Counted from the first letter of the stretch, positions 1 to 55,938 are shown. The stretch: DNA of 55,938 bases from a virus (IMGVR_UViG_3300025098_000053:1-55938); one strand, 5' to 3'. The notes: generated from the sequence alone by a model not told the origin. Translations and numbers: made by a program.

Positions 1-52
1 GTGGGCATGTGTGATTGTGTGTGTTTGTGAATTCCCATCGATTTACTCGCAT

Positions 53-80
53 AAAAAAACCCCAATCTTTCGACCAGGGT
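53..80 (-). terminator. Intrinsic terminator
   Basis: Minus strand ACCCTGGTC-GAAA-GATTGGGGT stem with G-U pairs, followed by a T run. Confidence 0.8.
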
Positions 81-243
81 GAAAACATCTCTGTTTTTGT
101 GGAAAGGAGTGACAAATTCCTTTGTAGCGAAGAATACTTAAACTGACCAAATCCTCAAAGATGCATGTAAAAGGAGAATCAAGCATATGATTCAATAACA
201 AAAAGCGACTTAAACATGTTTTTCAGGGAAAGTGGAAGTTCAG
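53..243 (-). ncRNA. Candidate ~190-nt sRNA
   Basis: TATAATTA on minus strand at 250-257, terminator at 53-80, no ORF in the supplied track between them, CTCCTTT anti-SD tracts. Confidence 0.4.
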
Positions 244-276
244 ATAAATTAATTATATCATCAAAGTGCAAATTGT

Positions 277-717
277 TTAATTTTTTTTGCCATTAATTTG
301 CAATATTTTTTCATGAACCCACGGGAGTGGGAGGTGTGCAATCCAAGCCCATACATTTTCAGGCGTAATTAATTTCATATCGACGTATGAATGGCCTGTT
401 CCTGAGATCATTGTGTTGAGGATGCCAATAGGATCTTCTGTTTCATAGTAGAAATCATCGATGTTTGAAGTAAGGTAATACATCATTTCTTCTTTAAAGT
501 GATTGTGCGCGTAAATCTCGGCCCCTTCTTCATCATCTGGGCCATCTTCGTCCATGAAGCCTTCCCACATCCTATCGAAAGCGTATTTTGCCAGTTGCCC
601 GACCGGTGATTCGAATCCTGAAGTGGTTTTGATTGTGCCATCTTTTTCGATTTTGATGATATCCTCGACGAGTGCCTCAAAAAATCCTTGTAAATGCCCT
701 GTTGTGTAATAAGCCAT
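277..717 (-). CDS. Hypothetical acidic protein
   Basis: 146-aa ORF with AAGGAG RBS, A/C-rich leader and TATAATTA at 777-784. Confidence 0.8.
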   Translation of the reverse strand: MAYYTTGHLQGFFEALVEDIIKIEKDGTIKTTSGFESPVGQLAKYAFDRMWEGFMDEDGPDDEEGAEIYAHNHFKEEMMYYLTSNIDDFYYETEDPIGILNTMISGTGHSYVDMKLITPENVWAWIAHLPLPWVHEKILQINGKKN

Positions 718-882
718 GATGTTCTCCTTTAGGTGGCAGGTTTATTTGCCTTTTGTGTTTTTTGTTTTTCTAAATCTAATTATATCCAGTAAGTAGAAAA
801 ATTAAAAATATAATGCACTTTTTTTTATGGGCCCCACTTAAGTTTGCAAAACGGCTGTGACGTGCCCATCTTTTGCATAGCC

Positions 883-909
883 AAAAAAAATTTTCTCGGA
901 AATCCGAGA
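883..909 (-). terminator. Probable terminator
   Basis: TCTCGGA/TCCGAGA inverted repeat followed by a T tract, just after the 915 stop. Confidence 0.55.
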
Positions 910-914
910 GCTTT

Positions 915-2139: not shown

Positions 2140-3834
2140 ATGAATAAAGATGCATTAAATAAATTAATTGGATCCGCAGAAGGCCGGAGAGCTTTGTCAG
2201 CAGCTTCCCCGATTTTCTTTGATAAATACTATTTAAAAATGACGCCAGCAAAACATAGATCAAACTGGTTAAACACAATTGATCGTTTGGAAAGTGAGGC
2301 AGCATCAAGTGGGCAAAAAAAGAAATTGCTCGTGCTAAGCCCCAGAAGCCATGGGAAATCGTTGCTAAGTGCATCATTTGCTCTGAGGAAGATATGTTTG
2401 AATAGAAATGTATCTATCCTATTTATCAGCGCATCTGCAGGGCAGGCAGAAAAGAGAGTTCGTTTGATAAAAACCTTTATGGATTCTCCAACTGTGCAAG
2501 AAGATTGGTGTGGTGAAGGGTGTATTCCGTTTGAAGGAGGATCCGCTAAATTTACAGCAACACAAATATATGTGCAGCGTGATGGTAAATCTGTTGATCC
2601 AACAATAGAAGCTGTTGGCGCTGGTGGATCTATAACTGGGGCGCACGTTGATATTGTTATTATTGACGACCTTGAAGATGAGCGTACATGTGCATCTGCA
2701 GGTGTTCGACAAAAAACAAGAGATTGGCTTGCAGCAACTGTAACACCTATATTAAATCAGGGTGGATTGATGTTGGTTATTGGAACGAGAAAAAGTGGGG
2801 ATGATATTTATCATCACATGATTAATGATCCAACGTTTGAAGTTATACAAGAGCCTGCAATAATAAAATGGCCCACAACATATGAATATATTGTTGAACG
2901 CATGGAAAGTGGTCGTGAAGTTTTAAAAGATGTTGTTACTTCAGGGGATGAAGAAGTTCTTTGGCCAGAGTTTCGTGATATAAAATATTTATTAATGGAA
3001 CGTCGTTCAATGGGTTCAACATTATTCGAAAGAGAAATGCAAAATAAAATTATTGCTGCTGAAGATAGTGTTATTAAATCTGATTGGATTGCAGAATGTA
3101 AAACAAGCACATACACGTTCGATATGTATCCACCGCAGTTAGATTTATCAAAATGTGTTGTTGCACAAGGATGGGATCTTGCAATCGAATCTGATGCAAA
3201 GAAAGCAGCTAAAAAGGATAGTGATTTCACAGTGGGATGGACGATTGCAAAGGATACAAAAACAGGAATATATTGGGTATTAGATGTTTTCAGGGATCGA
3301 GGTTTATCACAGCAAAAAATAATGGATGAAATTGTAAAGATGTATAATAAACATAAGGATTATGTAAGAAGAGTTGCTGTGGAAAAGAATTCATTTGGTG
3401 CGTTGCATGTTGATGCACTGATGAAACATACAGATTTACCTGTAAGAGGTGTAATAATGAGCAAGAAAAATTCTCTTAAAATAAAAATACACAGATTAGC
3501 TGTTTTATTTGAGAATAAACTTGTTCGTTTTCCCTATATGGATGAAAACTGTCGTCAAATAATGAATGCTTTTGAGGAAGAAGCTATTTCTTGGCCATTT
3601 GCAAAACATGATGATACTTTAACTTCCTTAAAATGGGCAATCGAAGAAGTGGATTCAAATTCAGGAAACTATTCTGTAAGTTTTGGCACACAAATGTATG
3701 GTGCAGATGGAGAGTTATCTGAAGGTAAAGGTGATCAAAAAACTATGGATGATTTCTGGATGCAGTTTAGAGCATCTGATGATTGGGAAGAACATGCAGA
3801 TCCAAATTACTTTGGAGATAAAGATAAAAAATAA
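2140..3834 (+). CDS. terL: Terminase large subunit
   Basis: Walker A SPRSHGKS, Walker B IVIIDDLE, coupling motif IGT, nuclease motifs GWDLAI, DFT and HDD. Confidence 0.95.
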   Translation: MNKDALNKLIGSAEGRRALSAASPIFFDKYYLKMTPAKHRSNWLNTIDRLESEAASSGQKKKLLVLSPRSHGKSLLSASFALRKICLNRNVSILFISASAGQAEKRVRLIKTFMDSPTVQEDWCGEGCIPFEGGSAKFTATQIYVQRDGKSVDPTIEAVGAGGSITGAHVDIVIIDDLEDERTCASAGVRQKTRDWLAATVTPILNQGGLMLVIGTRKSGDDIYHHMINDPTFEVIQEPAIIKWPTTYEYIVERMESGREVLKDVVTSGDEEVLWPEFRDIKYLLMERRSMGSTLFEREMQNKIIAAEDSVIKSDWIAECKTSTYTFDMYPPQLDLSKCVVAQGWDLAIESDAKKAAKKDSDFTVGWTIAKDTKTGIYWVLDVFRDRGLSQQKIMDEIVKMYNKHKDYVRRVAVEKNSFGALHVDALMKHTDLPVRGVIMSKKNSLKIKIHRLAVLFENKLVRFPYMDENCRQIMNAFEEEAISWPFAKHDDTLTSLKWAIEEVDSNSGNYSVSFGTQMYGADGELSEGKGDQKTMDDFWMQFRASDDWEEHADPNYFGDKDKK

Positions 3835-9468: not shown

Positions 9469-9737
9469 ACCCTAATTTATCAAATGCAATGAAAACCTTT
9501 TGGGAAAATAAAACTTCTGAAGAAAAGATGGAAATCAATTCAAAAAGAGGTTCAACAATAAAGAATAATTGTATATACATGAAAAATGAGGGTCGATCTT
9601 ATCCGTGCAAGTTCGAATTCGTATTGGATCGCCTCGCACTCGGACATCTTATCGTTTCTACAAATTTAAATAGAGCGAAAGTTGCGAACTTCTTTGGGGA
9701 AATACCTGAGCTATTTTTTACAAAAAATAAAAAATAA
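9465..9737 (+). CDS. Small basic protein with NUMOD-like N-terminus
   Basis: LSNAMKTFWENKTSEEK motif; no nuclease domain. Confidence 0.5.
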   Translation: MNPNLSNAMKTFWENKTSEEKMEINSKRGSTIKNNCIYMKNEGRSYPCKFEFVLDRLALGHLIVSTNLNRAKVANFFGEIPELFFTKNKK

Positions 9738-9864
9738 ATTTAAAGTTTGGCAACTAAACATATAATTATAGATAGTTTATAAAATATTTTTTTTTGATTG
9801 ACAAATTGAAATATGGTTAGCTGCAGAAAATTACGCAAAACAAAAAATCTTATAGGAGTATAAC

Positions 9865-12342
9865 ATGAGCGCAATTAAACCTAATACAAACCTTGGGCAT
9901 GATCTCGGTACAACTTCCCTAAAATGGGGTGTTCTACACGCAGGTGATGTACAAACAGCAACATTAACCGCTTCAGGAAATGTTGAAATTTCTGGTAATC
10001 TCACCGTAACTGGAACTCAAACTTCATTGCAGGTAACTACTGTTGAAGCTGAAGATCCCTTGATCAAACTTGCACGTGGAAACAGTGCTGATTCGCTTGA
10101 TATTGGTTTTTATGGCCAATCAAATGATGGATCAGATAAATTCCACGGTATTGCACGTGATGCAGATGATGGAAAATTCTATGCATTTAAAGATCTTGCA
10201 TCTGAGCCAACAACTGTTATGGGCACTTTAAGCGGATCAAACAAAGCTTCAATCGTTGCTAACGTTGAAGGTGCGCTAACTGGTAATGCAACAACTGCAA
10301 CAACTCTTGCAACTGGAAGAAACTTCGGAATCACTTCAGGCCCTGTTCGTGCTGCTAATATAAGCTTCGACGGATCCGGAAACGTTGCCTTTACTTCAAC
10401 AATTGCTGATGATCAAATTACTGACGACATGCTTGCAGGATCTATTTCAAACGGAAACCTTGCAAACAGCTCAATTACAATAACTGCTGGCAATGGCCTT
10501 TCTGGTGGCGGATCAGTTGATCTTGGTGGAACTGTGGCACTCGCTGTTGGTGTTGATGATTCTTCAATTGAACTTGATAGTGATCAATTACGTGTTAAAG
10601 CAACAGGTATTACTAATGCAATGCTTGCTGGATCAATTGCTGATTCAAAACTTTCAACAATCTCTACTTCTGATAAAGTAAGTGGTTCTGCGGTTCAACT
10701 TGCAACAGCATCTGCTATTGAAGATAACAGTGGTTTGCGTCTTAAGGCAGCAACTGCTGGTGATGGCCTTGCATTAGGAGCAACACAAATACTTTCAGTA
10801 AATGTTGATGATAGTTCAATCGAAACAAACTCAGACGCATTGCGAGTTAAAGCAGGCGGTATTACTGATACAATGCTTGCAGGCGGTATTTCAAATGGCA
10901 AGCTAACAAACAGTGCAGTTTCATTTGGTGGCGTAAGCGTTTCACTTGGTGGAGCAAATGCACAACCTGCTTTTGATCTTACAAATGCTACTGATTATCC
11001 TACTTCAAGCTTAACTGGATCAATTACTAACGCACAACTTGCTGGATCAATTGCAAATGAGAAGTTAGCTAACTCTGGTATCGAACTTAAACTTGCTGGA
11101 TCTTCACAAGAAACAATCGCTCTTGGATCATTTATTGATATTGCAGGTACATCAAATGAAATCGACGTTACTTATGCAAGTGGCGATAACAAATATACCT
11201 TTAGCTTGCCTTCAACAATTTCAGCAGCACTTAATGGTAATGCTTCATCAGCAAATGCTCTTAACTCTGCTGTAAATGTTGGTATTACTGCTGGCCCAGT
11301 TCGCGCAGCAAACGTAAGTTTTGATGGTTCTGGAGCAATTGCTCTTACATCATCTATCGCTGATGATCAAATTACCAATGATATGCTTGCTAACCCAGGC
11401 CTTACTCTTAAACTTGGTGGAGTTTCTCAAGAAACTATCGAGTTAGGCAGTGATTTTAATATCGCTGGTACCTCAAATGAAGTTGATGTTGCATATGCTA
11501 CAGGAAGTAATACATATACCTTTAGCTTACCTTCAACCATTAATGCTGCAACTTCTGGAAATGCAGCAACTGCAACAGCTTTGGCATCTGCAGTAAATAT
11601 CGGTATTACTGCTGGCCCAGTTAGAGCTGCTAATATTAGTTTTGATGGTTCTGGCGCTGTTGCAATGACGAGTTCAATCGCTGATGAGCAAATCACAAAC
11701 GACATGCTTGTTAGTGATTCAATTACATTTGCTGGTGGAAGTGGTTCTCAAGCTCTTCAACTTGGTGATACATTTACTATTAATGGAACATCAAATGAGA
11801 TTGAAACAGCAGTATCTGGCGATGCAATTACAATTGGTTTGCCAAGTTCTGTAAATATCACATCAAATCTTGACGTTGGTGGTAACCTTACACTTTCCGG
11901 CGCGGCTGTTATTACTGGTAATATTACAGCTTCTGGCCAGTTAAGTGCTTCTGGTGCTAATATCTCATTCGCTGATACTTTGATCGAGTTTGGTGTTAAT
12001 AATACTGGTGCTAAAGATCACGGATTTTATTCACAACGTTCATCAGGCGCATTCTGCGGATTTGTTTTCGATGAATCAGATGATAAATTCAAGGTATTCA
12101 CAACTGATACAGAGCCTACATCAACAGTTGATACAAGCCAAGGTGGATTTAGCAAGGGTGATTTCGAGGCAAATACAATTGCTGCAGCTTCAACATTATC
12201 AGGTGCATTGAGAAGTACTGGATCTGCTCCAGCTTCTGTAAGCGCAACTGGTACAGCTGGTGATATTCGCTTTGATTCAAACAAGCTTTATGTTTGTATC
12301 TCAAGTAATTCTTGGAAGGCAGTTGATTTAAGCACATTCTAA
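9865..12342 (+). CDS. Fibre-like structural protein with internal repeats
   Basis: DLGTTSLKW N-terminus; repeated VDDSSIE-LRVKA and GPVRAAN.SFDGSG; C-terminal GTAGDIRFD.NKLYVC fibre motif. Confidence 0.75.
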   Translation: MSAIKPNTNLGHDLGTTSLKWGVLHAGDVQTATLTASGNVEISGNLTVTGTQTSLQVTTVEAEDPLIKLARGNSADSLDIGFYGQSNDGSDKFHGIARDADDGKFYAFKDLASEPTTVMGTLSGSNKASIVANVEGALTGNATTATTLATGRNFGITSGPVRAANISFDGSGNVAFTSTIADDQITDDMLAGSISNGNLANSSITITAGNGLSGGGSVDLGGTVALAVGVDDSSIELDSDQLRVKATGITNAMLAGSIADSKLSTISTSDKVSGSAVQLATASAIEDNSGLRLKAATAGDGLALGATQILSVNVDDSSIETNSDALRVKAGGITDTMLAGGISNGKLTNSAVSFGGVSVSLGGANAQPAFDLTNATDYPTSSLTGSITNAQLAGSIANEKLANSGIELKLAGSSQETIALGSFIDIAGTSNEIDVTYASGDNKYTFSLPSTISAALNGNASSANALNSAVNVGITAGPVRAANVSFDGSGAIALTSSIADDQITNDMLANPGLTLKLGGVSQETIELGSDFNIAGTSNEVDVAYATGSNTYTFSLPSTINAATSGNAATATALASAVNIGITAGPVRAANISFDGSGAVAMTSSIADEQITNDMLVSDSITFAGGSGSQALQLGDTFTINGTSNEIETAVSGDAITIGLPSSVNITSNLDVGGNLTLSGAAVITGNITASGQLSASGANISFADTLIEFGVNNTGAKDHGFYSQRSSGAFCGFVFDESDDKFKVFTTDTEPTSTVDTSQGGFSKGDFEANTIAAASTLSGALRSTGSAPASVSATGTAGDIRFDSNKLYVCISSNSWKAVDLSTF

Positions 12343-12856: not shown

Positions 12857-13009
12857 ATGAAAAAAGATAATATTGCAGCAGAAAAACTTCAAATTGAGAT
12901 TTTAAAAAGCATCCAGAAAGATATACGTTCGTGCATGTGTCACTGTGATAAGATGATTAAGATCATTAGTGATTACCAATTAAAGATGAAAAACACAAAA
13001 GCTAAATAA
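12857..13009 (+). CDS. 50-aa hypothetical protein
   Basis: MKKDNIAAEKLQIEILKS..., AAGGA RBS; below the ORF track cutoff. Confidence 0.55.
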   Translation: MKKDNIAAEKLQIEILKSIQKDIRSCMCHCDKMIKIISDYQLKMKNTKAK

Positions 13010-21864: not shown

Positions 21865-22460
21865 TGTCAGTTGATTTACACATTCAGCATGTTATACATA
21901 ACGGCATTAAGTTATACAAGGATAATGCAAACGATATATTCAGAGATTTGTTTTATGATGTATCACCTGCTTTATCAACAAAGTGGTATAACAAGATGAA
22001 TGCTGCTGATATACATTTTGATAAAGCATTTTCACGTAAGAAAGAAAAATTTCCGCTTATTACAACAAGGCTTGTTGAAGCAGTTGATAATAGAAACAAG
22101 CTTCTTGGTAATCAAGGTGCTCAAGGAAATAAAACAATATTCATTTCAGCACAGTGCGACATCCATATTTTTGCAGATGATTTTGATTTTGTACGAATAA
22201 TCTCAAGAATATGCAAAGCTTCAATTCTGGGCTTTAAAAGTAATTTTTTAGAAAAAGGTTATTTAGATATAAATTTCATTGGTTCTCAAGATTTGGCTCC
22301 ACAATATGATTTAACATCTGAGGATGTGATTGTATATAATAGGGTTATCTCTTTTGTCGCGACACAGGAGCTTAACGTTCAACCTCAAATAAATCCAGAA
22401 CAATTTGGAGATATGCCATGGTCGTTGAACCCAACTATTGTGGGCAATAATGCAATTTAA
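21864..22460 (+). CDS. Tail completion protein (putative)
   Basis: Position before the sheath; FPLIT motif. Confidence 0.55.
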   Translation: MSVDLHIQHVIHNGIKLYKDNANDIFRDLFYDVSPALSTKWYNKMNAADIHFDKAFSRKKEKFPLITTRLVEAVDNRNKLLGNQGAQGNKTIFISAQCDIHIFADDFDFVRIISRICKASILGFKSNFLEKGYLDINFIGSQDLAPQYDLTSEDVIVYNRVISFVATQELNVQPQINPEQFGDMPWSLNPTIVGNNAI

Positions 22461-38981: not shown

Positions 38982-41093
38982 ATGCCATCAAATTTTAATA
39001 ATTACTATTCGATAACAGATGCAACGTATGCTATTGAAATACCCAGTACAATATCAGCATTGGGGTTTGATCCTAATTTCCCATCAGCTGTGGAAGAAAC
39101 TGGATCCATCTTTACGGATGAATTTTTAGGATTTGGAAGTGTTGTGCCTCAAAACCTTCCAGAATTAGACGCAACAGAAGCAATAAGAACTGCACAAGAT
39201 GTAGCAGCACAAAACCTTGGATTTGTAAGAGGCATTCCTGATATTGGTTTTGGTGGTGTAAGTTTTGAAGGTGCAGAATCAGATTTAAATTTTGATGTTG
39301 ATCCAAACTTCCAAAACATATTAGATGACGTTGATTGGGATGCATTTCCTCGAGGATGGGGAGAACCTGATCCACCCAAAGGCCACACAAGCAGCACAGT
39401 TTTTGGTGAATTTAACAAAGGCCAAAAAGATATTTCTGATAATGGTGGCGATGTAGTTGTTATAAACGCTGATTTTAAAAGAGTTTTTAATCAACCTAAC
39501 TTCCAAGGGCCAATGGGGCCATTCGTTGTAACGCTTGAAAGTGAAACAACAGGAATTAGATATCCTTCATTTAGTGGTATTCCCACACAGAGTTTGCTTT
39601 TATATACAACCATAAATCAAGATAAGTTATATTTCTGCACACATCCAATGCCAAAAGGACGTTATCAAGTTAATGTTCAGTTTAGAAATGGCAATGGTTT
39701 TTGGGATAGAATATATTTAAACAATGCATTATTGGTTGTGCAAAGAAATAGAAATGATGCAACAATGGGTGTGAGAGCAGCATTACCAAGCTTCTGGAAT
39801 GCAGGAGAAAGATCTGATAACTTTACTCCACCCGTTCCATATGTAAAAGGAAGTGAAAGTAATAATGCCATATTAACTTCAGCCATTGCAGAAACAACAA
39901 ACTATATGATCGATTCTGATTATACAGTTACGACAACAGAATTATTTCCGGTTGATATCCCAAACCCAGGCAATTATATAATACAGGTTGAAAGCACAAA
40001 AGGTTTTCCACCGTTTGGCCAAGTTAATATTGGTGGTGATGTTTATGATTTTGAAGTTAAAACAGAAACTGCATTGGTTCTTAATGAATATACAACAGGC
40101 CAAATAAAGAAAAGGTTGCCAAAAGGCACCAAAGTTAATATAAATCACATGGAATATTCTGAAATAGAGAATATTTATAAGCGACAAAACTTTAATATTC
40201 GCAAACCAGGGTTTGAAATGACCGATACAAATTGGCTTGCAGCATTTAGAAGAGTTTATCAAGGTGCATTTAATACACAAGCAACGTTATTCAATTACTT
40301 CTTTCATCTTTTCAGAGGAGTTAATGTAAGATTTTGTGCAACTGTTGCAAATGGTAGATTAATGAATGTAATAAATCCTTCATTATATCAGGGAATTTAT
40401 GATGCATTGCCTTTTGATATACAAGAAAACTTAAAAGTTAATTTAAATACACCTTTAAATACAGCACATGAACGTCGTCCAATGATCGTTTCAAGAGAAC
40501 CTATATTTGATTTGAATAGAGATGAATTATATTACACAAATGGTATTATAAAATCTGAAGGATTTGGATTTATATTGGAGCCAAATGATAGTGCATACTG
40601 GAGAGGCGCATATGGTTATTTAAACCTTAATGAAGATGGACGTCCAGTTGATGAAAACGGTGTTGTTTTGGAAGATATTGATGCTTCTCAAGCAAATGTT
40701 ACAAATCCAAACTTACGTGAAGTAAGAATTCCACCTGTTGATGAAAATGGTGAGCAGATTATATACTTCTGTGAAATATTACCATGGTTCTGGACGCAAG
40801 ATAGTGGTGGAAGATTTGAATTAGAATTAGATGATAGTGTATTAAACGTTATATCGAGCATGATTGATATTAACTTCATTGATTTTGATATATTCCTTGA
40901 TTCAATTGCAAGAAACGAATCAAACGTTGTAAGTGATCTTGGTTTAAATGATTTATTATCCAGTGGTGTTATAGGTAGAATTACAAAAAGAAGCAGAGGT
41001 GGGGAATTTGGAACACACGTTGAACCTAATGCTAATCCTGCCTTGGTTGATATAGACGTTTCAAATAACTTTATATTAGATCCAACGGAGTAA
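38982..41093 (+). CDS. Putative baseplate/tail structural protein
   Basis: 703 aa; IQVESTKGFPPFGQVNIG beta-domain; AAGGAG RBS. Confidence 0.5.
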   Translation: MPSNFNNYYSITDATYAIEIPSTISALGFDPNFPSAVEETGSIFTDEFLGFGSVVPQNLPELDATEAIRTAQDVAAQNLGFVRGIPDIGFGGVSFEGAESDLNFDVDPNFQNILDDVDWDAFPRGWGEPDPPKGHTSSTVFGEFNKGQKDISDNGGDVVVINADFKRVFNQPNFQGPMGPFVVTLESETTGIRYPSFSGIPTQSLLLYTTINQDKLYFCTHPMPKGRYQVNVQFRNGNGFWDRIYLNNALLVVQRNRNDATMGVRAALPSFWNAGERSDNFTPPVPYVKGSESNNAILTSAIAETTNYMIDSDYTVTTTELFPVDIPNPGNYIIQVESTKGFPPFGQVNIGGDVYDFEVKTETALVLNEYTTGQIKKRLPKGTKVNINHMEYSEIENIYKRQNFNIRKPGFEMTDTNWLAAFRRVYQGAFNTQATLFNYFFHLFRGVNVRFCATVANGRLMNVINPSLYQGIYDALPFDIQENLKVNLNTPLNTAHERRPMIVSREPIFDLNRDELYYTNGIIKSEGFGFILEPNDSAYWRGAYGYLNLNEDGRPVDENGVVLEDIDASQANVTNPNLREVRIPPVDENGEQIIYFCEILPWFWTQDSGGRFELELDDSVLNVISSMIDINFIDFDIFLDSIARNESNVVSDLGLNDLLSSGVIGRITKRSRGGEFGTHVEPNANPALVDIDVSNNFILDPTE

Positions 41094-41375: not shown

Positions 41376-41567
41376 ATGATTTTTGATGAAACAACGGTTT
41401 GTGGATTATGCAAAGAAGCTCAATGCATTTGTACTATTTATAAATGCCCTTGTGGAAAGCTTGAAACAAATTGTAAATGGCCGCTTGATGATAAATGCCC
41501 CTGTAGAATATGTGATGAATTAGCAATAAACTGTTCTTGCCATAAACCTTTGGAGGAGGAACAATGA
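41376..41567 (+). CDS. Cys-rich metallothionein-like peptide
   Basis: 63 aa from MIFDET with GAGG RBS; 12 Cys mostly in CxC/CxxC. Confidence 0.65.
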   Translation: MIFDETTVCGLCKEAQCICTIYKCPCGKLETNCKWPLDDKCPCRICDELAINCSCHKPLEEEQ

Positions 41568-42238
41568 AAAAGTTTTTATTATGGTTATCTATCGTTGTGA
41601 TATATAGCTATATCAATTTAATACAAATATTCCCTTCATGGGCGCAAAGTTATGAATGTGATAACAATTTTGAAGATTGTGGCACACCAGAACAAAGCGG
41701 TGGCGGTGGAGGAGGAGGATCTGTTTTAATAGCAAACACCGATTTAGGTGATAGTTATCAACATGCAGATGATTATGATGATGATGGCGTTGAAGATCCA
41801 TCTGATAATTGTATGAGGTATCCCAATCCACAGCAATTAGATCGTGATGGTGATGGGATAGGTGATGCATGCGATAATTGTATGGATTTACATAACATAT
41901 ATCAGGACGATGCAGATGGAGATGGATGGGGTGATTTCTGTGATGACGACATTGATGGTGATCAGATTGAAAACGTCGTTGATGAATGCCCATATATGTA
42001 TGGTAATTCGTTTTGCTTCGAAGAAATAAACAGAGAGCATCCTCGTGATTCTGATCAATACATTCAACCAGTTTGGAAGAGTGATAAATTAGAAAACCAT
42101 ACAAATGATCTTGATGAATCCGGAGATGGTTGTAATCAAGCATATAATAAGAAAAAAGGCTCATGGATTTGGTGGGCGTTTTTTGGATGGGTTTGTTATT
42201 TATTTTCAAGATGGGAAAACATACATAAAAAGGATTAA
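41564..42238 (+). CDS. Thrombospondin type-3 repeat surface protein with MYXO-CTERM-like anchor
   Basis: Signal peptide, DxDxDG..D..DNC repeats, C-terminal GDGC + TM + basic residues. Confidence 0.85.
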   Translation: MKKFLLWLSIVVIYSYINLIQIFPSWAQSYECDNNFEDCGTPEQSGGGGGGGSVLIANTDLGDSYQHADDYDDDGVEDPSDNCMRYPNPQQLDRDGDGIGDACDNCMDLHNIYQDDADGDGWGDFCDDDIDGDQIENVVDECPYMYGNSFCFEEINREHPRDSDQYIQPVWKSDKLENHTNDLDESGDGCNQAYNKKKGSWIWWAFFGWVCYLFSRWENIHKKD

Positions 42239-42241
42239 AAA

Positions 42242-43093
42242 ATGAATTTGCCAGATGATAATATTGTAGAAGCTGATATAGCTATTGTTTTGACCGATAT
42301 TATTGGAAGCACAGCATTTGTGCAAAGAAATGGCAAACATGCTGCAGCAAAATGGTTTTCTGCACATGATAAACTTGTAATGAGTTTAATAACAAAACAC
42401 GGTGGGCAGTGGTTGGATAATTCAGATGGAACTTTAATGTATTTTGGTAATGTGCCAGATGCTATTGCTTTTGGATTTGCATATAAAAAGTTTTTAAGAA
42501 AGAAAAAGTTTCCATTTAGGAGTAGGATTGGCATTCACTGGGATAGTATGCTCATTGTAAAAACAGAACAGAGTTTAGTTTCCGGTGGAGCAAAGAGATT
42601 AGCCATCGAAGGTATTGGAAAAAATATTGCTGCAAGAACAATGAGCCTTTGTGGCCCTGAACAAATATTACTTTCACATACAGCATATACAATATTTAAA
42701 CAATACGGGCATCGAAATCCATTTATACCTAAAAAAGCATTATCAGCACTTGTAGGTTTATATAAATTTAAAGGTGTTGCAGAACCTGAGCGTATTTATG
42801 CTATAGGTTTAATAACAGAACAAATGCAACCGCCTAAAGATAGTGAAAAAGCAAAGCGAATTGGTGGCGCAAAGAAAATAAAAACAAGAATGAAACATAA
42901 ACGATGGAGTGAGATCTTCTTTTATTTTTATTGGAGGATTGGATTCATTGCTTTTTGTTATTGGATCTGGGTTTTCTGGCCATTATTAACATCTTCACAG
43001 ATGAAAAGCAGTTGGAATATTGATTATTGGTTTTTACGTCCGTTTGAGGCGATAGATTATTTAATATGTTTTATCAAGGATAACATAAAATGA
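42242..43093 (+). CDS. Class III nucleotide cyclase with C-terminal TM
   Basis: LTDIIGST, DNSDG, RIGIH, NIAAR, QILLS and FKG..EP motifs. Confidence 0.9.
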   Translation: MNLPDDNIVEADIAIVLTDIIGSTAFVQRNGKHAAAKWFSAHDKLVMSLITKHGGQWLDNSDGTLMYFGNVPDAIAFGFAYKKFLRKKKFPFRSRIGIHWDSMLIVKTEQSLVSGGAKRLAIEGIGKNIAARTMSLCGPEQILLSHTAYTIFKQYGHRNPFIPKKALSALVGLYKFKGVAEPERIYAIGLITEQMQPPKDSEKAKRIGGAKKIKTRMKHKRWSEIFFYFYWRIGFIAFCYWIWVFWPLLTSSQMKSSWNIDYWFLRPFEAIDYLICFIKDNIK

Positions 43094-43218
43094 AAAACAG
43101 CAGCATTCTGGAAATCTTCTGGATAACGTTTTTATTAGGAGTTATATTAACACAACTTTATTTTACACATAAAGAGTTAGGAGATCCAAGTGGTATCGAA
43201 AAAGCCAGAAGAATGTAA
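43090..43218 (+). CDS. 42-aa single-TM peptide
   Basis: MKNSSILEIFWITFLLGVILTQLYF...; overlaps the cyclase stop; AAGGA RBS. Confidence 0.5.
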   Translation: MKNSSILEIFWITFLLGVILTQLYFTHKELGDPSGIEKARRM

Positions 43219-43657
43219 AAAAGAAGTAGCGCAAGAAAAAAGAGAAACACGTGGTTGGATATTTGCTGTTGTGTTTCTCTTTATTATTATAATGTTGATT
43301 ATATTTCTTGCTTACGTAGATTTTAAGGAAAGCAATAGGGACGTTCTTGTTGGTTTGTTTGGTGTATTATTTGGTAATATTCCTCACATGATAACGATAG
43401 CAAGTGGTAGGAGCCCTGAAGAATTGGATGATTTAAAAGATAAACTTGGATCGGCAAATGCAGATCGTCAAGCACTTATCTCAAGATTACGTGATTCACA
43501 AATACAACTTCAGCTTGCAAGGCAACAAATATTTGAGTTGCAAAATGCTGTAATTGAAGAACTTTCTATGTTTAGAGGAAAGAAACCAATTAAAAGTTTG
43601 CATGAGAATGATGTAATATTGCCTGATTTGGTTGATGAGTGGTCGCCAAAAAAATAA
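43190..43657 (+). CDS. Two-TM plus coiled-coil membrane protein
   Basis: GTG start with AGGAG RBS; two TM segments flanking NRD, then heptads. Confidence 0.75.
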   Translation: MVSKKPEECKKEVAQEKRETRGWIFAVVFLFIIIMLIIFLAYVDFKESNRDVLVGLFGVLFGNIPHMITIASGRSPEELDDLKDKLGSANADRQALISRLRDSQIQLQLARQQIFELQNAVIEELSMFRGKKPIKSLHENDVILPDLVDEWSPKK

Positions 43658-43720: not shown

Positions 43721-44053
43721 ATGAAAAAACTATTACTCGTACTATTTATGCTCTTCCCATTTACAGCATGTGAGAAGGAAGAGAAAGAACAAAAAGAGCC
43801 TGTCGTCCGTGAGGAAATGGATGCACAGCCTTGTGTAGAAGAAGAGGAAGGTGATATGGGCCTGGAGGGTGGCATGGAAATGGAAGAAGGCGGAGAACAA
43901 GCTGGTGTAGAAGAAGAAGATATGGCTGGCGACCAAGATGTATCTGGTGGTGAAGAGGATGAGCCTGAGTTACCAGTTGCTGGTGAAATGATGCCTGAAG
44001 AAATGCCTGAGGAAGGTGGTCAAATGGATGAGGAGGAAGATCCGGGCGAATAA
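43721..44053 (+). CDS. Acidic disordered lipoprotein
   Basis: MKK + hydrophobic stretch + FTAC lipobox-like site; E/G/M-rich. Confidence 0.75.
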   Translation: MKKLLLVLFMLFPFTACEKEEKEQKEPVVREEMDAQPCVEEEEGDMGLEGGMEMEEGGEQAGVEEEDMAGDQDVSGGEEDEPELPVAGEMMPEEMPEEGGQMDEEEDPGE

Positions 44054-47087: not shown

Positions 47088-47293
47088 CACTTGAGCCAGC
47101 ACCATCAAAAAAAAGTTAAAAATAAATAGTCAATGAAAATCAACACTTAACAAAAAAATATAAAATAATTGTAAAAAAATTTAACAGTTTGCTCCACTCC
47201 CTTATAGTTAGTAGTGTTAGGCAAAAAAACAAAACCTAACAACAGCCTCAAAAACACACAAAAACAAACTAAGCTTAAAAGGAGCAATAAATT

Positions 47294-48755: not shown

Positions 48756-48790
48756 ATCCAAGTTAAATCAACTTAAATAACTTAAATAAC

Positions 48791-49350: not shown

Positions 49351-50115
49351 ATGCTCAACATACAATATCTTAAAAATAGAATGAATGATATCCAACAACC
49401 CAAAGAAGTTGAAAAGGAAATTAAATATGTTAATTTTGAAGAAGGCAAAACATATAAGGTAAGATTTTTACCAATGGAAAACGGAAGTTTCTGTAATGAG
49501 TATTGGTTGTATTACGGAATCGCAAAGCAGTTTTTTAAATGCACACATAAATTAAATAAGCCAGATCCAATTCATGAAGAGTTTTTAAAGATACAACAAG
49601 ATCCCGGATTAAGTAATAACTGGAATTATTGTAAGCCATTCAAACCAAAGCTTCGTTGTGCTGCACCTGTAATTGTAAGAGGTGAAGAACATAAAGGAGT
49701 GCAAGTATTTACATTCAATGAAAAGATTTATGGAGATTTAATCTCAATCTTTATCCATGAAAAGTATCAAAATGCTGTTGATCCTGTAAATGGATTTGAT
49801 ATTGTTGTTAAAGCATATAAGAAAGATAAGTGGCTTCGTTTTGATATAAAGGGTGATGAATGGAGCACACAACTTAATATGGATATTTCAGCATTAACAG
49901 ATGATTTCCCTGATTTGGATAAGATCTATACTGAATATGATTATGACAGAATGAATGAATATTTAAGGGCATACAATAACCTTAATAAGCCACAACAGTT
50001 CAAAACAGAGCAATCTGGTGATCAAACTCCACCATGGAAATCATCTTGGAATCAAAATCAACCAGCATGGCAGCCAAATCAGTATAATGAGCAAGAAAAA
50101 GTAAAACCTTTTTAA
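49351..50115 (+). CDS. gp32-like single-stranded DNA-binding protein
   Basis: VRFLP, C......DPI.E, VIVRGEE..GV and DPVNGFDIVV motifs. Confidence 0.85.
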   Translation: MLNIQYLKNRMNDIQQPKEVEKEIKYVNFEEGKTYKVRFLPMENGSFCNEYWLYYGIAKQFFKCTHKLNKPDPIHEEFLKIQQDPGLSNNWNYCKPFKPKLRCAAPVIVRGEEHKGVQVFTFNEKIYGDLISIFIHEKYQNAVDPVNGFDIVVKAYKKDKWLRFDIKGDEWSTQLNMDISALTDDFPDLDKIYTEYDYDRMNEYLRAYNNLNKPQQFKTEQSGDQTPPWKSSWNQNQPAWQPNQYNEQEKVKPF

Positions 50116-50174
50116 GTTTTTTGTAATAAAAGTAAAAAAATAATATATTAAAATAAAATAGGAGATAACAAATT

Positions 50175-50780: not shown

Positions 50781-50784
50781 AATA

Positions 50785-51063: not shown

Positions 51064-51069
51064 ATAATT

Positions 51070-51432
51070 ATGGACCCGTATTCAAATCTTGCATTAAGCT
51101 TTTTAAAAGATGCAAAAAATCAAAGAATGATAATCCTCGTTTTAAGTGGATTAATCGCATTTGCCTTAGGTTATAACGCCAAACATTGCCCACCAAAGAA
51201 TGAAGTATGTTTTCAGGAAATGAAAGCAAGAGATAAATACTTTGCAAACTGGAATAAATGTAAGGAAGATAAAACAAAAGAATTAAATGCTCAAAGAGAT
51301 AAATCTGATAAAGAATGCAAAGTAAAGATCCAAAAAGAAATAGATAAACATGAAGCAGAATCTCAAATTGTGGATTGTGAAAAAGCCAGTGCATTATATA
51401 AACAATGCAAGAGAAGGAAGTTAATAAGATGA
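51070..51432 (+). CDS. TM-anchored coiled-coil protein (i-spanin-like candidate)
   Basis: N-terminal TM, Cys-containing coiled coil. Confidence 0.5.
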   Translation: MDPYSNLALSFLKDAKNQRMIILVLSGLIAFALGYNAKHCPPKNEVCFQEMKARDKYFANWNKCKEDKTKELNAQRDKSDKECKVKIQKEIDKHEAESQIVDCEKASALYKQCKRRKLIR

Positions 51433-52696: not shown

Positions 52697-53978
52697 TAAA
52701 GAAAAGATAATAGTATTAGATACTTCCGTTATTCTCTATGATAGAAACGCAATCCATAATTTAGGCAACAATAACATATACTTGCCTTTGGTTGTATTAG
52801 AGGAGTTGGATAGGAAGAAAACAGCCGAAGGTGTATTAGGAGAAAACGCCAGATACATTAACAGATTATTGGATGGTTGTCGCAGTGAAGGTAATTTAGC
52901 AGAAGGCGTTCCTTTTGGTGAAGCATCATTAACAATCATTAAAGATTTTTGCAAAGATACAATGATAACTCTTGAAGAAAGAACAAATGATCATAAAATT
53001 CTTGCAACTTGTGCTTGGTTAAAACAATCAAAGCCACAAGCAAGAGTTCGTTTGGTATCAAAGGATATAAACCTTCGAGTTAAATCTGATGCATTAGGAA
53101 TTGAAGCAGGAGATTATTATACAGATTATGAAGATGTTGATGCAGAATTAACTGGTTGGAAGGAGATAAAGGTTTCCAAACAAACCATTGATAAACTATA
53201 TAAAGATCAAGAAATGGATCTGAATAAAAAATGGGGATTATCTGAGAACCAATTTGCTGTATTAAAATGTGGCCAAGCATCTGCATTGGTATGGTTATTT
53301 GCTGATAAGGTAAGATTGCTGTTTTCTCCAGAAGAAATAAAAAAAGAAACTGGATCAACACCTAAAAACAAAGAACAACTCTTTGCATTATCAGCAATGA
53401 TTACAGAAGCTATTCCTTTGGTATCATTATCAGGTATCCCAGGAAGTGGTAAAACATATTTGGCATTAATGGCTGCATTATCTGAGTTAAACAATGGCAA
53501 TTATGAGAGGATTATATATACAAGGCCTATCGCAACTGTAGATAAAGGAATTGGTTTTCTTCCTGGAACTTTGGAAGAGAAGTTTGATCCATTCTTGGCA
53601 CCATTATCTGATAACTTTCAGAATGCTTTTGGAAACTTAGATTATTTTCACCTTTTGAGAGAGAAAAAGAAAATAGATATTGCACCCATTTCATTTATCA
53701 GAGGTAGATCTTTAAAGGATTGCTTTATAATTGTTGATGAAGCACAAAATGCAACAAAACATGAACTTAAAACAATCATTACAAGAGTTGCAGAAGGCAG
53801 TAAAATAGTTTTAATTGGTGATACCAAACAAATAGATACTCAATATCTTGATGAAAGATCAAATGGTTTAACAATCATTGCAGATAAATTCAAAGGAAGT
53901 AAATTGGCAGCTCATGTTCATTTTACAAAGGGATATCGTTCTCCTCTTGCAACAGAAGCAGATTCATTAATCGAGTAG
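52689..53978 (+). CDS. phoH: PIN domain + PhoH-family ATPase
   Basis: VLDTSV, VLEELD, NDHKIL, SKDINLR; GIPGSGKT, IGFLPG, RGRS, DEAQN, GD..QID. Confidence 0.95.
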   Translation: MSDKEKIIVLDTSVILYDRNAIHNLGNNNIYLPLVVLEELDRKKTAEGVLGENARYINRLLDGCRSEGNLAEGVPFGEASLTIIKDFCKDTMITLEERTNDHKILATCAWLKQSKPQARVRLVSKDINLRVKSDALGIEAGDYYTDYEDVDAELTGWKEIKVSKQTIDKLYKDQEMDLNKKWGLSENQFAVLKCGQASALVWLFADKVRLLFSPEEIKKETGSTPKNKEQLFALSAMITEAIPLVSLSGIPGSGKTYLALMAALSELNNGNYERIIYTRPIATVDKGIGFLPGTLEEKFDPFLAPLSDNFQNAFGNLDYFHLLREKKKIDIAPISFIRGRSLKDCFIIVDEAQNATKHELKTIITRVAEGSKIVLIGDTKQIDTQYLDERSNGLTIIADKFKGSKLAAHVHFTKGYRSPLATEADSLIE

Positions 53979-53979
53979 A

Positions 53980-54351
53980 ATGAAATATTTATTGCTGATA
54001 TATATAAGTTATATATTTTTATTGCTTTCTTGTGGAGAAGATACTCATCAAAGAGATATTGTTGATATAAGGATTTCAAAAGATAAACTTGATTTAAGTG
54101 CATATACAGAATGTATTTATCCAGTAACAGCAATTGAACACAACCTAAACTATCAGATCAGAAGAGTTATATGCCAATATAATACTGAGGCATTAACAAC
54201 ATTGGAAACAGTTTATACAGATTCTGAACCACAAAATGAAATTAAGCATAAAAAAATATTTAAATGGTTTCGCAATCAATTGATTATTGATTATTATGAT
54301 TATAAAGATGGAGTTGAAATGAAAACAACATCAATAATATTAAATTTTTAA
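53980..54351 (+). CDS. Putative lipoprotein
   Basis: MK + hydrophobic stretch + LLSC lipobox. Confidence 0.6.
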   Translation: MKYLLLIYISYIFLLLSCGEDTHQRDIVDIRISKDKLDLSAYTECIYPVTAIEHNLNYQIRRVICQYNTEALTTLETVYTDSEPQNEIKHKKIFKWFRNQLIIDYYDYKDGVEMKTTSIILNF

Positions 54352-54528
54352 GGAGTATTGTAATGAAAACTGCGGATATTGTGGTATCTTGTATATCATT
54401 TTTTTATTTTGCATGCTTTTGCACACACTTTTTTTATTAAAAAAGCAAAATAATTTTACAAAATAGGCAAGTAAGCATATAATTAAAGATGTAAGAACTA
54501 TAAGTTGTTTGATGAGTTGTTTTCTCAT
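54340..54528 (-). CDS. Possible small TM peptide
   Basis: AAGGA RBS, A/C-rich leader, hydrophobic N-half; overlapped by an antisense unit. Confidence 0.4.
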   Translation of the reverse strand: MRKQLIKQLIVLTSLIICLLAYFVKLFCFFNKKSVCKSMQNKKMIYKIPQYPQFSLQYSLKI

Positions 54529-54628
54529 TAGTTTTCCTTTTTGGAATGTGTTTTTCTTTCGTGTTGTTTAGTGTTATGTTGCCAACTATAGTTTTTATAC
54601 TAAAAGATCTCTTCGGAGATTTTTTTTT
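54490..54628 (+). ncRNA. Candidate ~140-nt antisense sRNA
   Basis: TATAATTA at 54478-54485 and a cUUCGg terminator at 54605-54628. Confidence 0.5.
54605..54628 (+). terminator. Intrinsic terminator
   Basis: AGATCTC-TTCG-GAGATTT followed by a T run. Confidence 0.85.
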
Positions 54629-54763
54629 GGAAGCAAATCGTTGGATTTACCATTACTTCAAACAAATAAAACAAAATAAATGAAAAAAAGTTTTATATTT
54701 ACTCAAGTTCTGTTATAATTAAGAGTAGAACATGCAAAAGAACTCAATTAAATTAAGGAGAAG

Positions 54764-55627
54764 ATGATGAGTAAATTAAGTTTTGAAGATTTAGAAGAAA
54801 CAATTGCTGTAGATAAGAAATCAATGGAAGAAGAATTGTTTGCAGAAACAGATGATAGTATTCCATTACTCAGTGATACAGTTGTTGTATTAAACAAAAC
54901 ATTTACTCAACCTCAAGATGAATTAGCTTGGGATATTTGGGATTCAATCCCTAATGAGTTTCTTTGGAACGGATCAATGAAAAGCAGAAATGGCCTGAAA
55001 TATATACTTGAACAAAAAGGTATCTCCTTAAATGATCCTCAGGTTGCACAAGAATGCAAAGATAAAATATTGGAAGAAGCAGGAAAGGCAGCATTAACAG
55101 TTGATGATGCTATTTTTGATGATTTACTATCAATGAAATCTGATAATGAGGTTGCTGCTGTTTCACAAGAAGAATTCACACAACATGTTTCATCAAAACC
55201 TCCCCAAGAAGATAACACACTTCAATTGATGCAGCAACAGATGGATAAAATGCAAAACATCATTACACAACTATCAGAACGTGTTGTTATATTGGAAGAA
55301 GAAAACAAACTCTTAAACCAAATCAAAGAAGCACTCAATGAATCAGCTGCTAAATCTGAATCTTTAATTAAATCAACCCCAGAACAACAAACAAAAACAG
55401 CAGATCTCTCTCCAATAGAAATCATCAACACTTATACAACACCAAAGGAAGATACTCCACCAAAGAAAAGGAAACGTGGTCGCCCTGCAGGTTATAAAAC
55501 ATCCAATGCAACAAAAGAAAAACAACGCAAAGCAAGATTACTAAAATTAGAAAAACAAAAACGCAACCCCATCAATGAAACAGAACATAAACACAGAGAT
55601 ATGCAGTTTAACGTCTGTTTGAATTAA
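54764..55627 (+). CDS. Coiled-coil protein with AT-hook/NUMOD3-like basic tail
   Basis: AAGGAG RBS; KRKRGRP and TSNATKEKQRKAR motifs. Confidence 0.75.
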   Translation: MMSKLSFEDLEETIAVDKKSMEEELFAETDDSIPLLSDTVVVLNKTFTQPQDELAWDIWDSIPNEFLWNGSMKSRNGLKYILEQKGISLNDPQVAQECKDKILEEAGKAALTVDDAIFDDLLSMKSDNEVAAVSQEEFTQHVSSKPPQEDNTLQLMQQQMDKMQNIITQLSERVVILEEENKLLNQIKEALNESAAKSESLIKSTPEQQTKTADLSPIEIINTYTTPKEDTPPKKRKRGRPAGYKTSNATKEKQRKARLLKLEKQKRNPINETEHKHRDMQFNVCLN

Positions 55628-55938
55628 ACACAAAACACCATAAAACATATTCACTCAACAAGAAAGTAAAACAGAAGTATATCCTCATAACTCTTTTAAA
55701 ACTATGCATGCAGAAACATATAAAATTCAAATTTACAAATGAACTTCACCGCAAAAGAAAAAAGCGGTTAAAAATAGAAACAACAAAAAACGCACACATA
55801 TACATTTCAGCTATACCTGAAAGGAAAGCGCATATATCCACTCATTAAACAATTCATATGCTCACATACATTCATATTCTTATTAAACATACAGAGAAAC
55901 AAACACAAAAAAAGCCAACACAAAAAGAGATAAATCTC

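What the first reader, a model, noticed from the sequence alone, without database searches (positions are those of the whole stretch)
1..55938. Apparent avoidance of GAC/GTC unless overlapped by CpG (DGACH/DGTCH depletion)
Seen by eye: Thr is mostly ACA/ACT, yet after Met or Trp it is ACG in about 20 junctions I read (e.g. 2239, 28119, 34828), with one exception at 40218. Gly is mostly GGT/GGA, but before CA/CC/CT codons it switches to GGC/GGG (e.g. 5995, 28065-28076; exceptions 19298, 44018). GGTCG and GGACG are tolerated, and the AGAC and AGTC I saw are nearly always followed by G. The pattern covers both strands, so it acts on DNA. Inference: selection by a host defence that targets a very short GAC/GTC site and is blocked by an overlapping, possibly methylated, CpG. 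No methyltransferase is visible in this window.
Basis: partly seen in the sequence, partly recalled or inferred. Interest (0 to 1): 0.75.

Follow-up and report, generated by a model that had tools for sequence, protein, structure and literature searches.

The report
Marine phage purged of GAC/GTC sites
This marine phage genome has lost almost every GAC/GTC triplet that is not flanked by a CpG, alongside two classical restriction sites, which points to a host DNA-cutting enzyme with an unusually short, so far undescribed target.

Summary
The 55,938-bp window is a whole viral record of an uncultured marine myovirus. It holds 18 DGWCH pentamers, where base composition predicts about 754. In its ORFs there are 16, against 343 ± 14 in synonymous-codon shuffles. 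GWC overlapped by a CpG is not depleted (175 vs 120 ± 9.5).

The signature is lineage-specific. It occurs in two separate clades of one phage family and not in the relatives between them. One contig, L134, is intermediate.

GTNNAC and CTAG are also absent from the window (0 vs 94 and 0 vs 66). It shares this three-motif pattern and its tail-fibre-like genes with a clade only 54% identical in capsid protein. Its 89% sister keeps GTNNAC.

Relatives avoid other short palindromes instead: CATG, GATC, GTAC, TCGA. No DNA methyltransferase was found in 5 records.

Best reading: host-imposed restriction-type avoidance of a degenerate palindrome with a GWC core. I found no described enzyme with this specificity.

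"CpG overlap" cannot be told apart by sequence from plain flank specificity (not C before, not G after). CpG methylation has no direct support here.

The parts
1..55938 (.). Genome-wide avoidance of DGWCH (GAC/GTC without a flanking CpG). Also total absence of GTNNAC and CTAG.
   Evidence: 18 DGWCH vs about 754 expected from base composition. 16 vs 343 ± 14 in ORFs. GTNNAC 0 vs 94.0 ± 7.4 and CTAG 0 vs 66.0 ± 6.3. Residual sites are spread evenly, 0-3 per 5 kb.
110..148 (.). Residual sites TGACA (110) and TGACC (144)
2195..2199 (.). Residual site TGTCA in the large terminase gene
   Evidence: lost in sister G001
9642..9646 (.). Residual site GGACA, also present at the aligned place in G001
9799..9803 (.). 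Residual site TGACA inside an intergenic TTGACA hexamer upstream of gene 9865-12342 (possible -35 box)
   Evidence: sequence read directly
12938..12942 (.). Residual site TGTCA
18438..18442 (.). Residual site TGACA (TTGACA) at the start of the capsid gene; TGACA is kept in G001
19298..19302 (.). Residual site GGTCC in the capsid gene; G001 has GGACC at the aligned place
21865..21869 (.). Residual site TGTCA at a stop/start overlap (TAATGTCA)
22793..22797 (.). Residual site GGTCA in the sheath gene
31317..31321 (.). Residual site GGACA. A variant contig in run X7 reads C at 31318, which removes the site.
36668..36672 (.). Residual site TGACC
40219..40223 (.). Residual site TGACC.
42291..42295 (.). 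Residual site TGACC; G001 has TGACT at the aligned place
44018..44022 (.).
47128..47132 (.). Residual site AGTCA, intergenic. It is the only site with A before G in the window.
49944..49948 (.). Residual site TGACA
51072..51076 (.). Residual site GGACC
9865..12342 (+). 825-aa tail-fibre-like protein. It is 67% identical to the second depleted clade (G002/G003) but only 40% to the sister G001.
   Evidence: no Pfam family; the fibre role is inferred from position and mosaic pattern
41564..43657 (+). Three genes, one with thrombospondin type 3 repeats. They are 72-85% identical to G002/G003, well above the 54% capsid identity. The surrounding DNA (window 41096-44001) is 74.6% identical to G002.

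Best explanation
The phage has been selected to lose the target sites of a host DNA-targeting enzyme. Most likely this is a restriction-modification-type or other defence nuclease.

Its effective recognition sequence is a very short degenerate palindrome: a G-W-C core, with any base but C before it and any base but G after it (DGWCH).

Each site costs some fitness, so synonymous codon choice has removed about 97% of them. Sites with C before or G after are not recognised, or are much less so. They therefore persist and even accumulate as the synonymous escape route: ACG after Met or Trp, and GGC or GGG before CA/CC/CT codons.

Shown here: the depletion itself, its symmetry, its independence from codon usage, its patchy phylogenetic distribution, and its co-occurrence with classical site avoidance.

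Inferred: that the agent is a host nuclease, and that the flank rule reflects the enzyme's own specificity rather than CpG methylation.
For: (1) Size and symmetry. DGWCH is 16 vs 343 ± 14 in ORFs. All nine classes are depleted, the asymmetric ones included. That fits one dimeric enzyme reading a degenerate palindrome better than several separate palindromic enzymes.

(2) The trait is not inherited simply.
- Of 80 viral-contig loci of the family, 4 (L001, L003, L004, L015) have o/e of 0.06 or less, and the other 76 have 0.42 or more.
- On the capsid tree the depleted ones form two clades separated by the non-depleted L002.
- L134 is uniformly intermediate, with o/e 0.27 and about 4 sites per kb.

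(3) Same-host signal.
- The window shares total GTNNAC avoidance (0 in all 10 classes) with G002/G003, whose capsid is 54% identical. Its 89% sister G001 has 92 such sites.
- Tail-fibre-like genes are 67-85% identical to G002/G003.

(4) The whole family practises site avoidance.
- G004 has CATG 0 vs 68, GATC 0 vs 130, GTAC 1 vs 97 and CTAG 1 vs 124.
- G005 has GTAC 6 vs 98.
- None of the 5 records has a DNA methyltransferase of three common families.

(5) Changes that separate L134's sites from the depleted L015 are of many kinds. Of 31 single-base differences: C>T 9, C>A 7, C>G 1, W>S 8, flank>C 5, G>A 1. Selection by any available route predicts this.

(6) The sequence recurs in independent marine runs.
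Against: - No host and no enzyme is identified.
- I found no described enzyme or methyltransferase with this specificity: nothing in two full-text searches, and REBASE was not available.
- A site this frequent (about one per 57 bp in random DNA) would force a host to methylate tens of thousands of sites.
- Sister G001 carries a 2.1-kb island with 43 DGWCH sites and 30 more elsewhere. Either the barrier is not absolute or G001 now lives under relaxed pressure.
- The graded flank effect (AGWCG/CGWCT o/e 0.48 in the window, 0.61 in G001) is absent in G002 (1.21).
- CheckV rates the records 33-46% complete, so unseen DNA could hold a methyltransferase or nuclease.
Confidence: 0.58

Rival explanations
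1. A nuclease recognises bare GWC, and an overlapping methylated CpG blocks it, because CpG methylation puts a methyl group on one of the two cytosines of the GWC palindrome. The phage DNA would be CpG-methylated by a host or phage enzyme.
For: One CpG on either side is enough to exempt a site, and CGWCG is no better off than singly flanked sites (o/e 1.8-2.2 for all). That fits a block by methylating one strand of the core. CpG-overlapped GWC is enriched 1.5-fold over shuffles.
Against: - It cannot be told apart by sequence from a plain D...H flank rule.
- No C5, N4/N6 or D12 DNA methyltransferase is present in 5 of 5 records. The only methyltransferase-like ORF is a generic SAM enzyme in G001.
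- CpG o/e (0.61) is like that of most close non-depleted relatives, 0.67-0.70.
- A CG-specific host methyltransferase would not protect the host's own DGWCH sites.
- From recall, CG-specific bacterial methyltransferases are known mainly from Mollicutes. This phage reads in table 11 and has relatives with sigma70-type promoters.
- AGWCG is half-depleted in the window despite its CpG.
Confidence: 0.12
2. An infection-activated (abortive-infection type) promiscuous host nuclease with a short sequence preference. It shreds any DNA carrying the motif. A phage without sites keeps replicating while the host chromosome is destroyed. No host methylation is needed.
For: - It removes the problem of protecting tens of thousands of host sites.
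- It gives a per-site, roughly multiplicative benefit, which explains gradual purging and intermediate genomes such as L134.
- The distribution evidence is the same as for the best explanation.
Against: - No such nuclease with this motif is known to me (recall only).
- The co-avoided sites GTNNAC and CTAG look like ordinary type II targets.
- Nothing in the data separates this from a classical restriction system.
Confidence: 0.12
3. Phage-intrinsic cause. The phage's own nuclease (for host DNA breakdown), or a packaging, replication or regulatory protein, reads GWC-containing signals, and the rest of the genome avoids them.
For: In sister G001, DGWCH sites are concentrated in one 2.1-kb early-promoter island. 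It holds 9 same-strand copies and 1 reverse copy of TGGACTGG, lying in several reading frames and between genes. GAC-containing words are therefore used as signals somewhere in this lineage.
Against: - Avoiding all 18 pentamers is far broader than any one signal.
- No gene is shared by the depleted genomes and absent from G004/G005 that looks like a nuclease.
- The trait is polyphyletic on the capsid tree and tracks the host-range module and other restriction-site avoidances.
Confidence: 0.07
4. Mutational footprint. A motif-directed cytosine deaminase, or decay of methylated cytosine in GWC, converts GWC to GWT. Selection only tidies up afterwards.
For: GAT, GTT, AAC and ATC, the C>T products on the two strands, are the four most over-represented trinucleotides under a first-order Markov model.
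Against: - A 20- to 40-fold depletion in coding DNA exceeds known decay footprints (recall: vertebrate CpG is about 0.2).
- Escape often goes through the flank (ACA to ACG) or through transversions. Only 10 of 31 single-base differences between L134 sites and L015 are C>T or G>A.
- CGACA-type sites, whose top-strand C sits in an unprotected GAC-A context, are enriched. A single-strand context rule therefore fails.
- The GAT/GTT excess is what synonymous replacement of GAC and GTC codons gives anyway.
Confidence: 0.06

Closest known systems
Restriction-site (palindrome) avoidance in phage genomes (recalled examples: T7-group and Bacillus phages, Staphylococcus phage K without GATC)
   Same: Near-total loss of a short palindromic word on both strands, achieved through synonymous codon choice. 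It is specific to lineage and host and is combined with avoidance of other sites. Here those are GTNNAC and CTAG, and in relatives CATG, GATC, GTAC and TCGA.
   Different: The avoided word has only three fixed bases plus an exclusion rule at each flank, which makes 18 pentamers. About 750 sites had to be purged from 56 kb. No cognate enzyme is described.
CviJI (RGCY) and other very frequent cutters and nickases of chlorella viruses; RGCY methylation in marine viral MAGs
   Same: They show that nucleases and methyltransferases with 2-3 specified bases and degenerate flanks exist. A paper on marine methylomes reports RGCY as the most common methylated motif in viral MAGs (9 V-MAGs; PMC8919816, passages read).
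   Different: The core differs: GC there, GWC here. RGCY words are not depleted in the window; GGCC is in fact enriched. Those enzymes are virus-encoded, whereas here the agent is inferred to be the host's.
AvaII/SinI (GGWCC), Hpy99I (CGWCG), SduI/Bsp1286I (GDGCHC); specificities given from recall
   Same: GGWCC is one of the nine avoided classes. Hpy99I shares the GWC core. SduI shows that paired 'not C / not G' (D...H) positions occur in real type II sites.
   Different: GGWCC alone explains 2 of 18 pentamers. CGWCG is exactly the class that is not avoided here (22 observed, about 10 expected). No known enzyme reads DGWCH.
CpG-specific methyltransferases M.SssI and M.MpeI, and CpG-methylation-sensitive restriction
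   Same: An overlapping methylated CpG blocking a restriction site is a familiar laboratory effect.
   Different: No such methyltransferase was found in these phages, and there is no evidence of CpG methylation.

Membership tests
Phage restriction-site avoidance | The word is depleted on both strands, and it is its own reverse complement as a set | tested here: met
   DGACH 11 and DGTCH 7 on the + strand. The set DGWCH is self-complementary.
Phage restriction-site avoidance | Depletion goes beyond base composition, codon usage and amino-acid sequence | tested here: met
   16 vs 343.0 ± 14.3 in 300 synonymous shuffles; 12 vs 321.9 ± 12.2
Phage restriction-site avoidance | Depletion follows the host rather than phage phylogeny | tested here: inconclusive
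   Two separate clades carry it. The window shares its avoidance pattern and fibre-like genes with the distant clade. The host itself is unknown.
Phage restriction-site avoidance | A cognate nuclease (with or without a methyltransferase) exists in the host | not testable with these tools
   No host was identified. The one genome-collection scan found only a distant (35%) capsid relative in a MAG.
Known type II specificity | The avoided word equals a described recognition sequence | tested here: not met
   Full-text searches for GWC with methyltransferase and restriction (19 papers, 15 listed, none relevant by title or abstract) and for RGWCY, DGWCH, AGWCT, TGWCA (0 occurrences; only GGWCC was found). 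REBASE was not available.
Protection by phage-encoded DNA methylation | A DNA methyltransferase gene is present in the phage | tested here: not met
   PF00145, PF01555 and PF02086 each give 0 of 5 records. Controls matched in 9, 13 and 9 of 14 genomes. The records may be incomplete.
CpG-methylation block | CpG in virion DNA is methylated | not testable with these tools
   Only assembled contigs were available.
Deaminase or methyl-cytosine decay footprint | Losses are dominated by C>T / G>A at the core cytosine | tested here: not met
   10 of 31 single-base differences; 32 further sites differ at 2 or more positions and were not classified.

The most novel reading that the evidence does not exclude
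A marine bacterium carries an undescribed defence nuclease, or restriction-modification pair, whose target is in effect the three-base palindrome GWC and is switched off by a flanking CpG (by specificity or by methylation). It would be one of the most frequent-cutting sequence-specific systems known. It is strong enough that at least two phage lineages have independently rewritten about 97% of some 750 sites through synonymous codon choice.
Probability: 0.45. Interest if true: 0.78.

Novelty: new variant of a known kind. Interest (0 to 1): 0.62.

Why it matters
If the reading is right, the phage genome is a negative print of an enzyme nobody has described: a sequence-specific DNA-targeting system with only three fixed bases.

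That would extend the known range of restriction specificities, and it could yield a useful frequent cutter or a CpG-sensitive tool enzyme.

It also shows how far codon usage can be bent by defence. Thr, Gly, Asp, Val and Ser codon choice in this genome is dictated by the neighbouring codon.

Across the phage family, each lineage carries a different set of avoided words. These patterns could serve as host-linkage markers for uncultured marine viruses.

Tried and rejected
- **Known-site explanation.** Rejected: all nine DGWCH classes are depleted.
- **RNA-level causes** (m6A-like DRACH, RNase toxins). Rejected: GAC and GTC are equally depleted on the sense strand.
- **tRNA array as the cause of the G001 island.** 0 tRNAs found in L084, the window, L085 and L087.
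- **Close cultured relatives.** megablast of 8.9 kb against phages found no match. tblastn of the capsid gave 60 records, all under 60% identity; the listed hits were 24-30%, SPO1-like.
- **Extending the window.** The right-end protein found no viral-contig relative.
- **Unrelated phages sharing the fibre genes.** Only the already known depleted contigs plus L098 turned up.
- **Population variants.** Of 40 listed variant letters, 1 creates and 1 destroys a site; 2.3 creations are expected by chance. Uninformative.
- **RNA expression.** No RNA holder was listed.
- **Gene families.**
  - In the window, 30 ORFs scanned with Pfam gave no methyltransferase. The only nuclease-related match was a weak NOV_C hit (below). 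Two others passed or neared their cut-offs: TSP_3 at 41564-42238 and a sub-threshold Amidase_2 at 46323-47087. Two were weak: NOV_C (E 0.007) and HAP1_N (E 0.005).
  - A different set of 20 window ORFs was scanned with PHROGs and gave structural genes and PhoH.
  - In G001 and G002, 30 further ORFs were scanned with Pfam. The only hits were a weak KilA-N in G002 and a generic SAM methyltransferase in G001.
- **Extended context of residual sites.** The only trend is fewer A two bases before the G: 0.15 vs 0.35 in G004. It is weak and was not pursued.
- **Supplementary tables** of the marine methylome papers, which list motifs per MAG, could not be opened and may hold a relevant motif.


Full report
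**What the window is**

The window is the whole of a 55,938-bp viral record. It carries these genes:
- large terminase at 2140-3834;
- portal at 13029-15665;
- prohead protease at 16137-17579;
- major capsid protein at 18413-19927;
- tail sheath at 22512-24317;
- baseplate genes at 31483-34816 (the genes above are);
- a weak amidase match at 46323-47087;
- a PhoH-like ATPase at 52689-53978.

No cultured phage is close. tblastn of the capsid protein finds 60 phage records, all below 60% identity. The listed ones are at 24-30% and are SPO1-like. Public runs that hold the sequence are marine metagenomes. One independent assembly covers 13029-33000 in a single contig with 11 differences.

CheckV rates these records 33-46% complete. 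However, in relative G005 (62,095 bp) the terminase gene runs across the two contig ends. I read that as a complete circular assembly of about 62 kb. On that reading the window lacks roughly 6 kb. This is inference.

**The observation**

GTC (86 vs 507 expected) and GAC (141 vs 604) are the two rarest trinucleotides relative to base composition. Of 227 GWC in the window:
- 18 have neither a C before nor a G after (DGWCH);
- 187 have one flanking CpG;
- 22 have two.

Shuffling synonymous codons within each of 60 ORFs keeps protein sequence and codon usage, including the already skewed Asp and Val usage. It gives 343.0 ± 14.3 DGWCH against 16 observed. For singly CpG-flanked GWC it gives 119.9 ± 9.5 against 175 observed.

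All nine reverse-complement classes are depleted:

| Class | Observed vs shuffle mean |
|---|---|
| AGACT, AGACC, AGTCC, AGACA, AGTCA | 0 each, vs 25-61 each |
| GGACA | 2 vs 38 |
| GGWCC | 2 vs 22 |
| GGTCA/TGACC | 6 vs 35 |
| TGWCA | 6 vs 56 |

The 18 residual sites are spread over the genome. Four of the ten that align with sister G001 are still sites there.

**Distribution among relatives**

I aligned 26 capsid homologues and fetched 80 viral-contig loci.
- Four loci (L001, L003, L004, L015) have DGWCH o/e of 0.01-0.06. The other 76 have 0.42-1.32.
- Whole records give G001 73 sites (expected 708), G002 9 (772) and G003 5 (478). The non-depleted G004 has 767 (725) and G005 has 472 (772).
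- On a capsid tree of 82 sequences the depleted genomes form two clades: the window with G001, and the G002 group. The non-depleted L002 lies between them.
- Among 80 metagenome loci:
  - L129 (0.06) and L131 (0.01) are further copies of known depleted contigs (L001 and L004);
  - L134 is intermediate. It is 70-78% identical in DNA to L015 and has o/e 0.27, evenly about 4 sites per kb;
  - the 2.2-kb fragment L197 has o/e 0.31;
  - the other 76 have 0.45 or more.

The trait is therefore gained or lost on the time scale of this family's divergence, and it changes gradually.

**Why I read it as host-imposed restriction avoidance**

A scan for other missing words shows that GTNNAC is absent from the window, G002 and G003 in all ten classes. 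G001 has 92, G004 63 and G005 117. Against synonymous shuffles, in the window GTNNAC is 0 vs 94.0 ± 7.4 and CTAG is 0 vs 66.0 ± 6.3.

The window thus shares a three-motif avoidance pattern with a clade whose capsid is only 54% identical. Its 89% sister lacks the GTNNAC part. The same pairing shows in the likely host-range genes:
- 9865-12342 is 67% identical to G002/G003 and 40% to G001;
- 41564-43657 is 72-85% identical to G002/G003.

The surrounding DNA, window 41096-44001, is 74.6% identical to G002.

The rest of the family avoids other short palindromes almost completely:
- G004: CATG 0 vs 68, GATC 0 vs 130, GTAC 1 vs 97, CTAG 1 vs 124;
- G005: GTAC 6 vs 98, plus TCGA and GAWTC words;
- G002: additionally GTAC 1 vs 102.

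None of the five records has a C5, N4/N6 or D12-class DNA methyltransferase. Avoidance, not self-methylation, is this family's way of dealing with restriction. DGWCH is one more avoided word of the same kind, only much shorter.

**The CpG question**

A C before GWC, or a G after it, always makes a CpG. 'Blocked by CpG' and 'the enzyme reads D-G-W-C-H' therefore cannot be separated by sequence.

Against methylation:
- no suitable methyltransferase was found;
- CpG o/e is 0.61, like most close relatives at 0.67-0.70;
- a CG methyltransferase would leave a host's own sites exposed.

For plain specificity, paired D/H positions occur in known type II sites (SduI, recalled). In the window and G001, sites with A before the G are hit hardest, and even AGWCG/CGWCT is at 0.48 and 0.61. 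That suggests graded half-site recognition. In G002 the same class is at 1.21, so this point is weak.

**Mutation against selection**

GAT, GTT, AAC and ATC are over-represented, as a C>T process would give. Synonymous replacement gives the same excess.

Between L134 and L015, 66 L134 sites align:
- 3 are kept;
- 32 differ at two or more positions;
- 31 differ at one position: C>T 9, C>A 7, C>G 1, W>S 8, flank to C 5, G>A 1.

Escape through the flank (ACA to ACG) is the rule after Met and Trp. CGACA-type words, whose top-strand C is unprotected in a single-strand reading, are enriched. A deaminase footprint is therefore unlikely.

**What speaks against a simple barrier**

G001 has a 2.1-kb island (record 47623-49702) with 43 DGWCH sites. 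The DNA on both sides is depleted. The island holds repeated TTGACA-N17-TATAAT promoters in front of small genes without Pfam matches. It also holds 9 same-strand copies and 1 reverse copy of TGGACTGG, in several frames.

G001 also has 30 residual sites elsewhere, including 8 AGACA/TGTCT, a class absent from the other three depleted genomes. I read G001, like L134, as living under weaker pressure and having recently acquired an early-gene cassette. The alternative, that GAC-containing words are phage signals, is kept as a rival.

**Known relatives of the phenomenon, and novelty**

Restriction-site avoidance is well known. What is unusual here is a three-base core with an exclusion rule at the flanks, and the purging of about 750 sites.

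Full-text searches found no paper with RGWCY, DGWCH, AGWCT or TGWCA. A search for GWC with methyltransferase and restriction gave 19 papers; the 15 listed were irrelevant by title or abstract.

In passages of two marine methylome papers and one m5C survey I saw no GWC-type motif. Their supplements were not available. One of them reports RGCY as the commonest methylated motif in marine viral MAGs (PMC8919816). Very short degenerate specificities therefore do exist in this habitat.

I file the finding as a new variant of a known kind. It is a real and striking avoidance signature that predicts an undescribed enzyme specificity. The host and the enzyme are still unknown.

Noticed in passing
window 1-55938; G002, G003 (L085-L089): GTNNAC is completely absent in all ten classes from the window, G002 and G003. 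The window's closest relative G001 has 92. CTAG is absent or nearly so from G000-G004 but normal in G005 (both-strand count 342 observed vs 318 expected).
   Followed up: yes
L084:7623-9702 (G001 record 47623-49702): A 2.1-kb island with 43 DGWCH sites lies inside an otherwise depleted genome. It has repeated near-identical TTGACA-N17-TATAAT promoters before four or five small ORFs with no Pfam match. TGGACTGG occurs 9 times on one strand and once reversed, in several reading frames and between genes. It may be an early-gene cassette with a repeated protein-binding or Chi-like word.
   Followed up: partly
G002 (L085-L087), G003, G004, G005: Strand-specific avoidance of GTAAC on the sense strand: G002 0 vs 32 GTTAC, G003 0 vs 20, G004 3 vs 35, G005 4 vs 26. 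It is absent in the window (24 vs 27). All sites point one way, as in the one-orientation sites of T7 that escape a type III enzyme (recalled). An RNA-level cause is also possible.
   Followed up: partly
G004 (L090-L092): GTAG-containing pentamers never occur on the + strand, while their complements occur 28-86 times each. Since most genes are on the - strand, CTAC is missing from the sense strand. This is another strongly strand-specific four-base avoidance.
   Followed up: no
L082:35-1087 (G001): A 350-aa generic class I SAM-dependent methyltransferase (Methyltransf_23, E 9e-7) sits next to the tail-fibre region. It is not a recognisable DNA methyltransferase and has no homologue in the window.
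   Followed up: no
G005 (L093, L096): The terminase gene is split across the two ends of the 62,095-bp record (residues 195-522 at the end, 2-193 at the start). The record is therefore probably a complete circular assembly, although it is classed as linear and 41% complete.
   Followed up: partly
window 45000-55938: CpG count and G+C fall towards the right end: 54, 36 and 10 CpG in the last three bins (the last one only 938 bp), against about 76-122 per 5 kb elsewhere; G+C is 0.31-0.33. This region holds small genes, mostly without relatives in G001-G005.
   Followed up: no
window 45295-45825 (- strand): A 176-aa ORF with a weak match (E 0.007, below the cut-off) to NOV_C (PF13020). By recall, this is a domain related to restriction-endonuclease-like folds. 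It has 26-28% relatives in G002, G004 and G005, so it is not specific to the depleted genomes.
   Followed up: no
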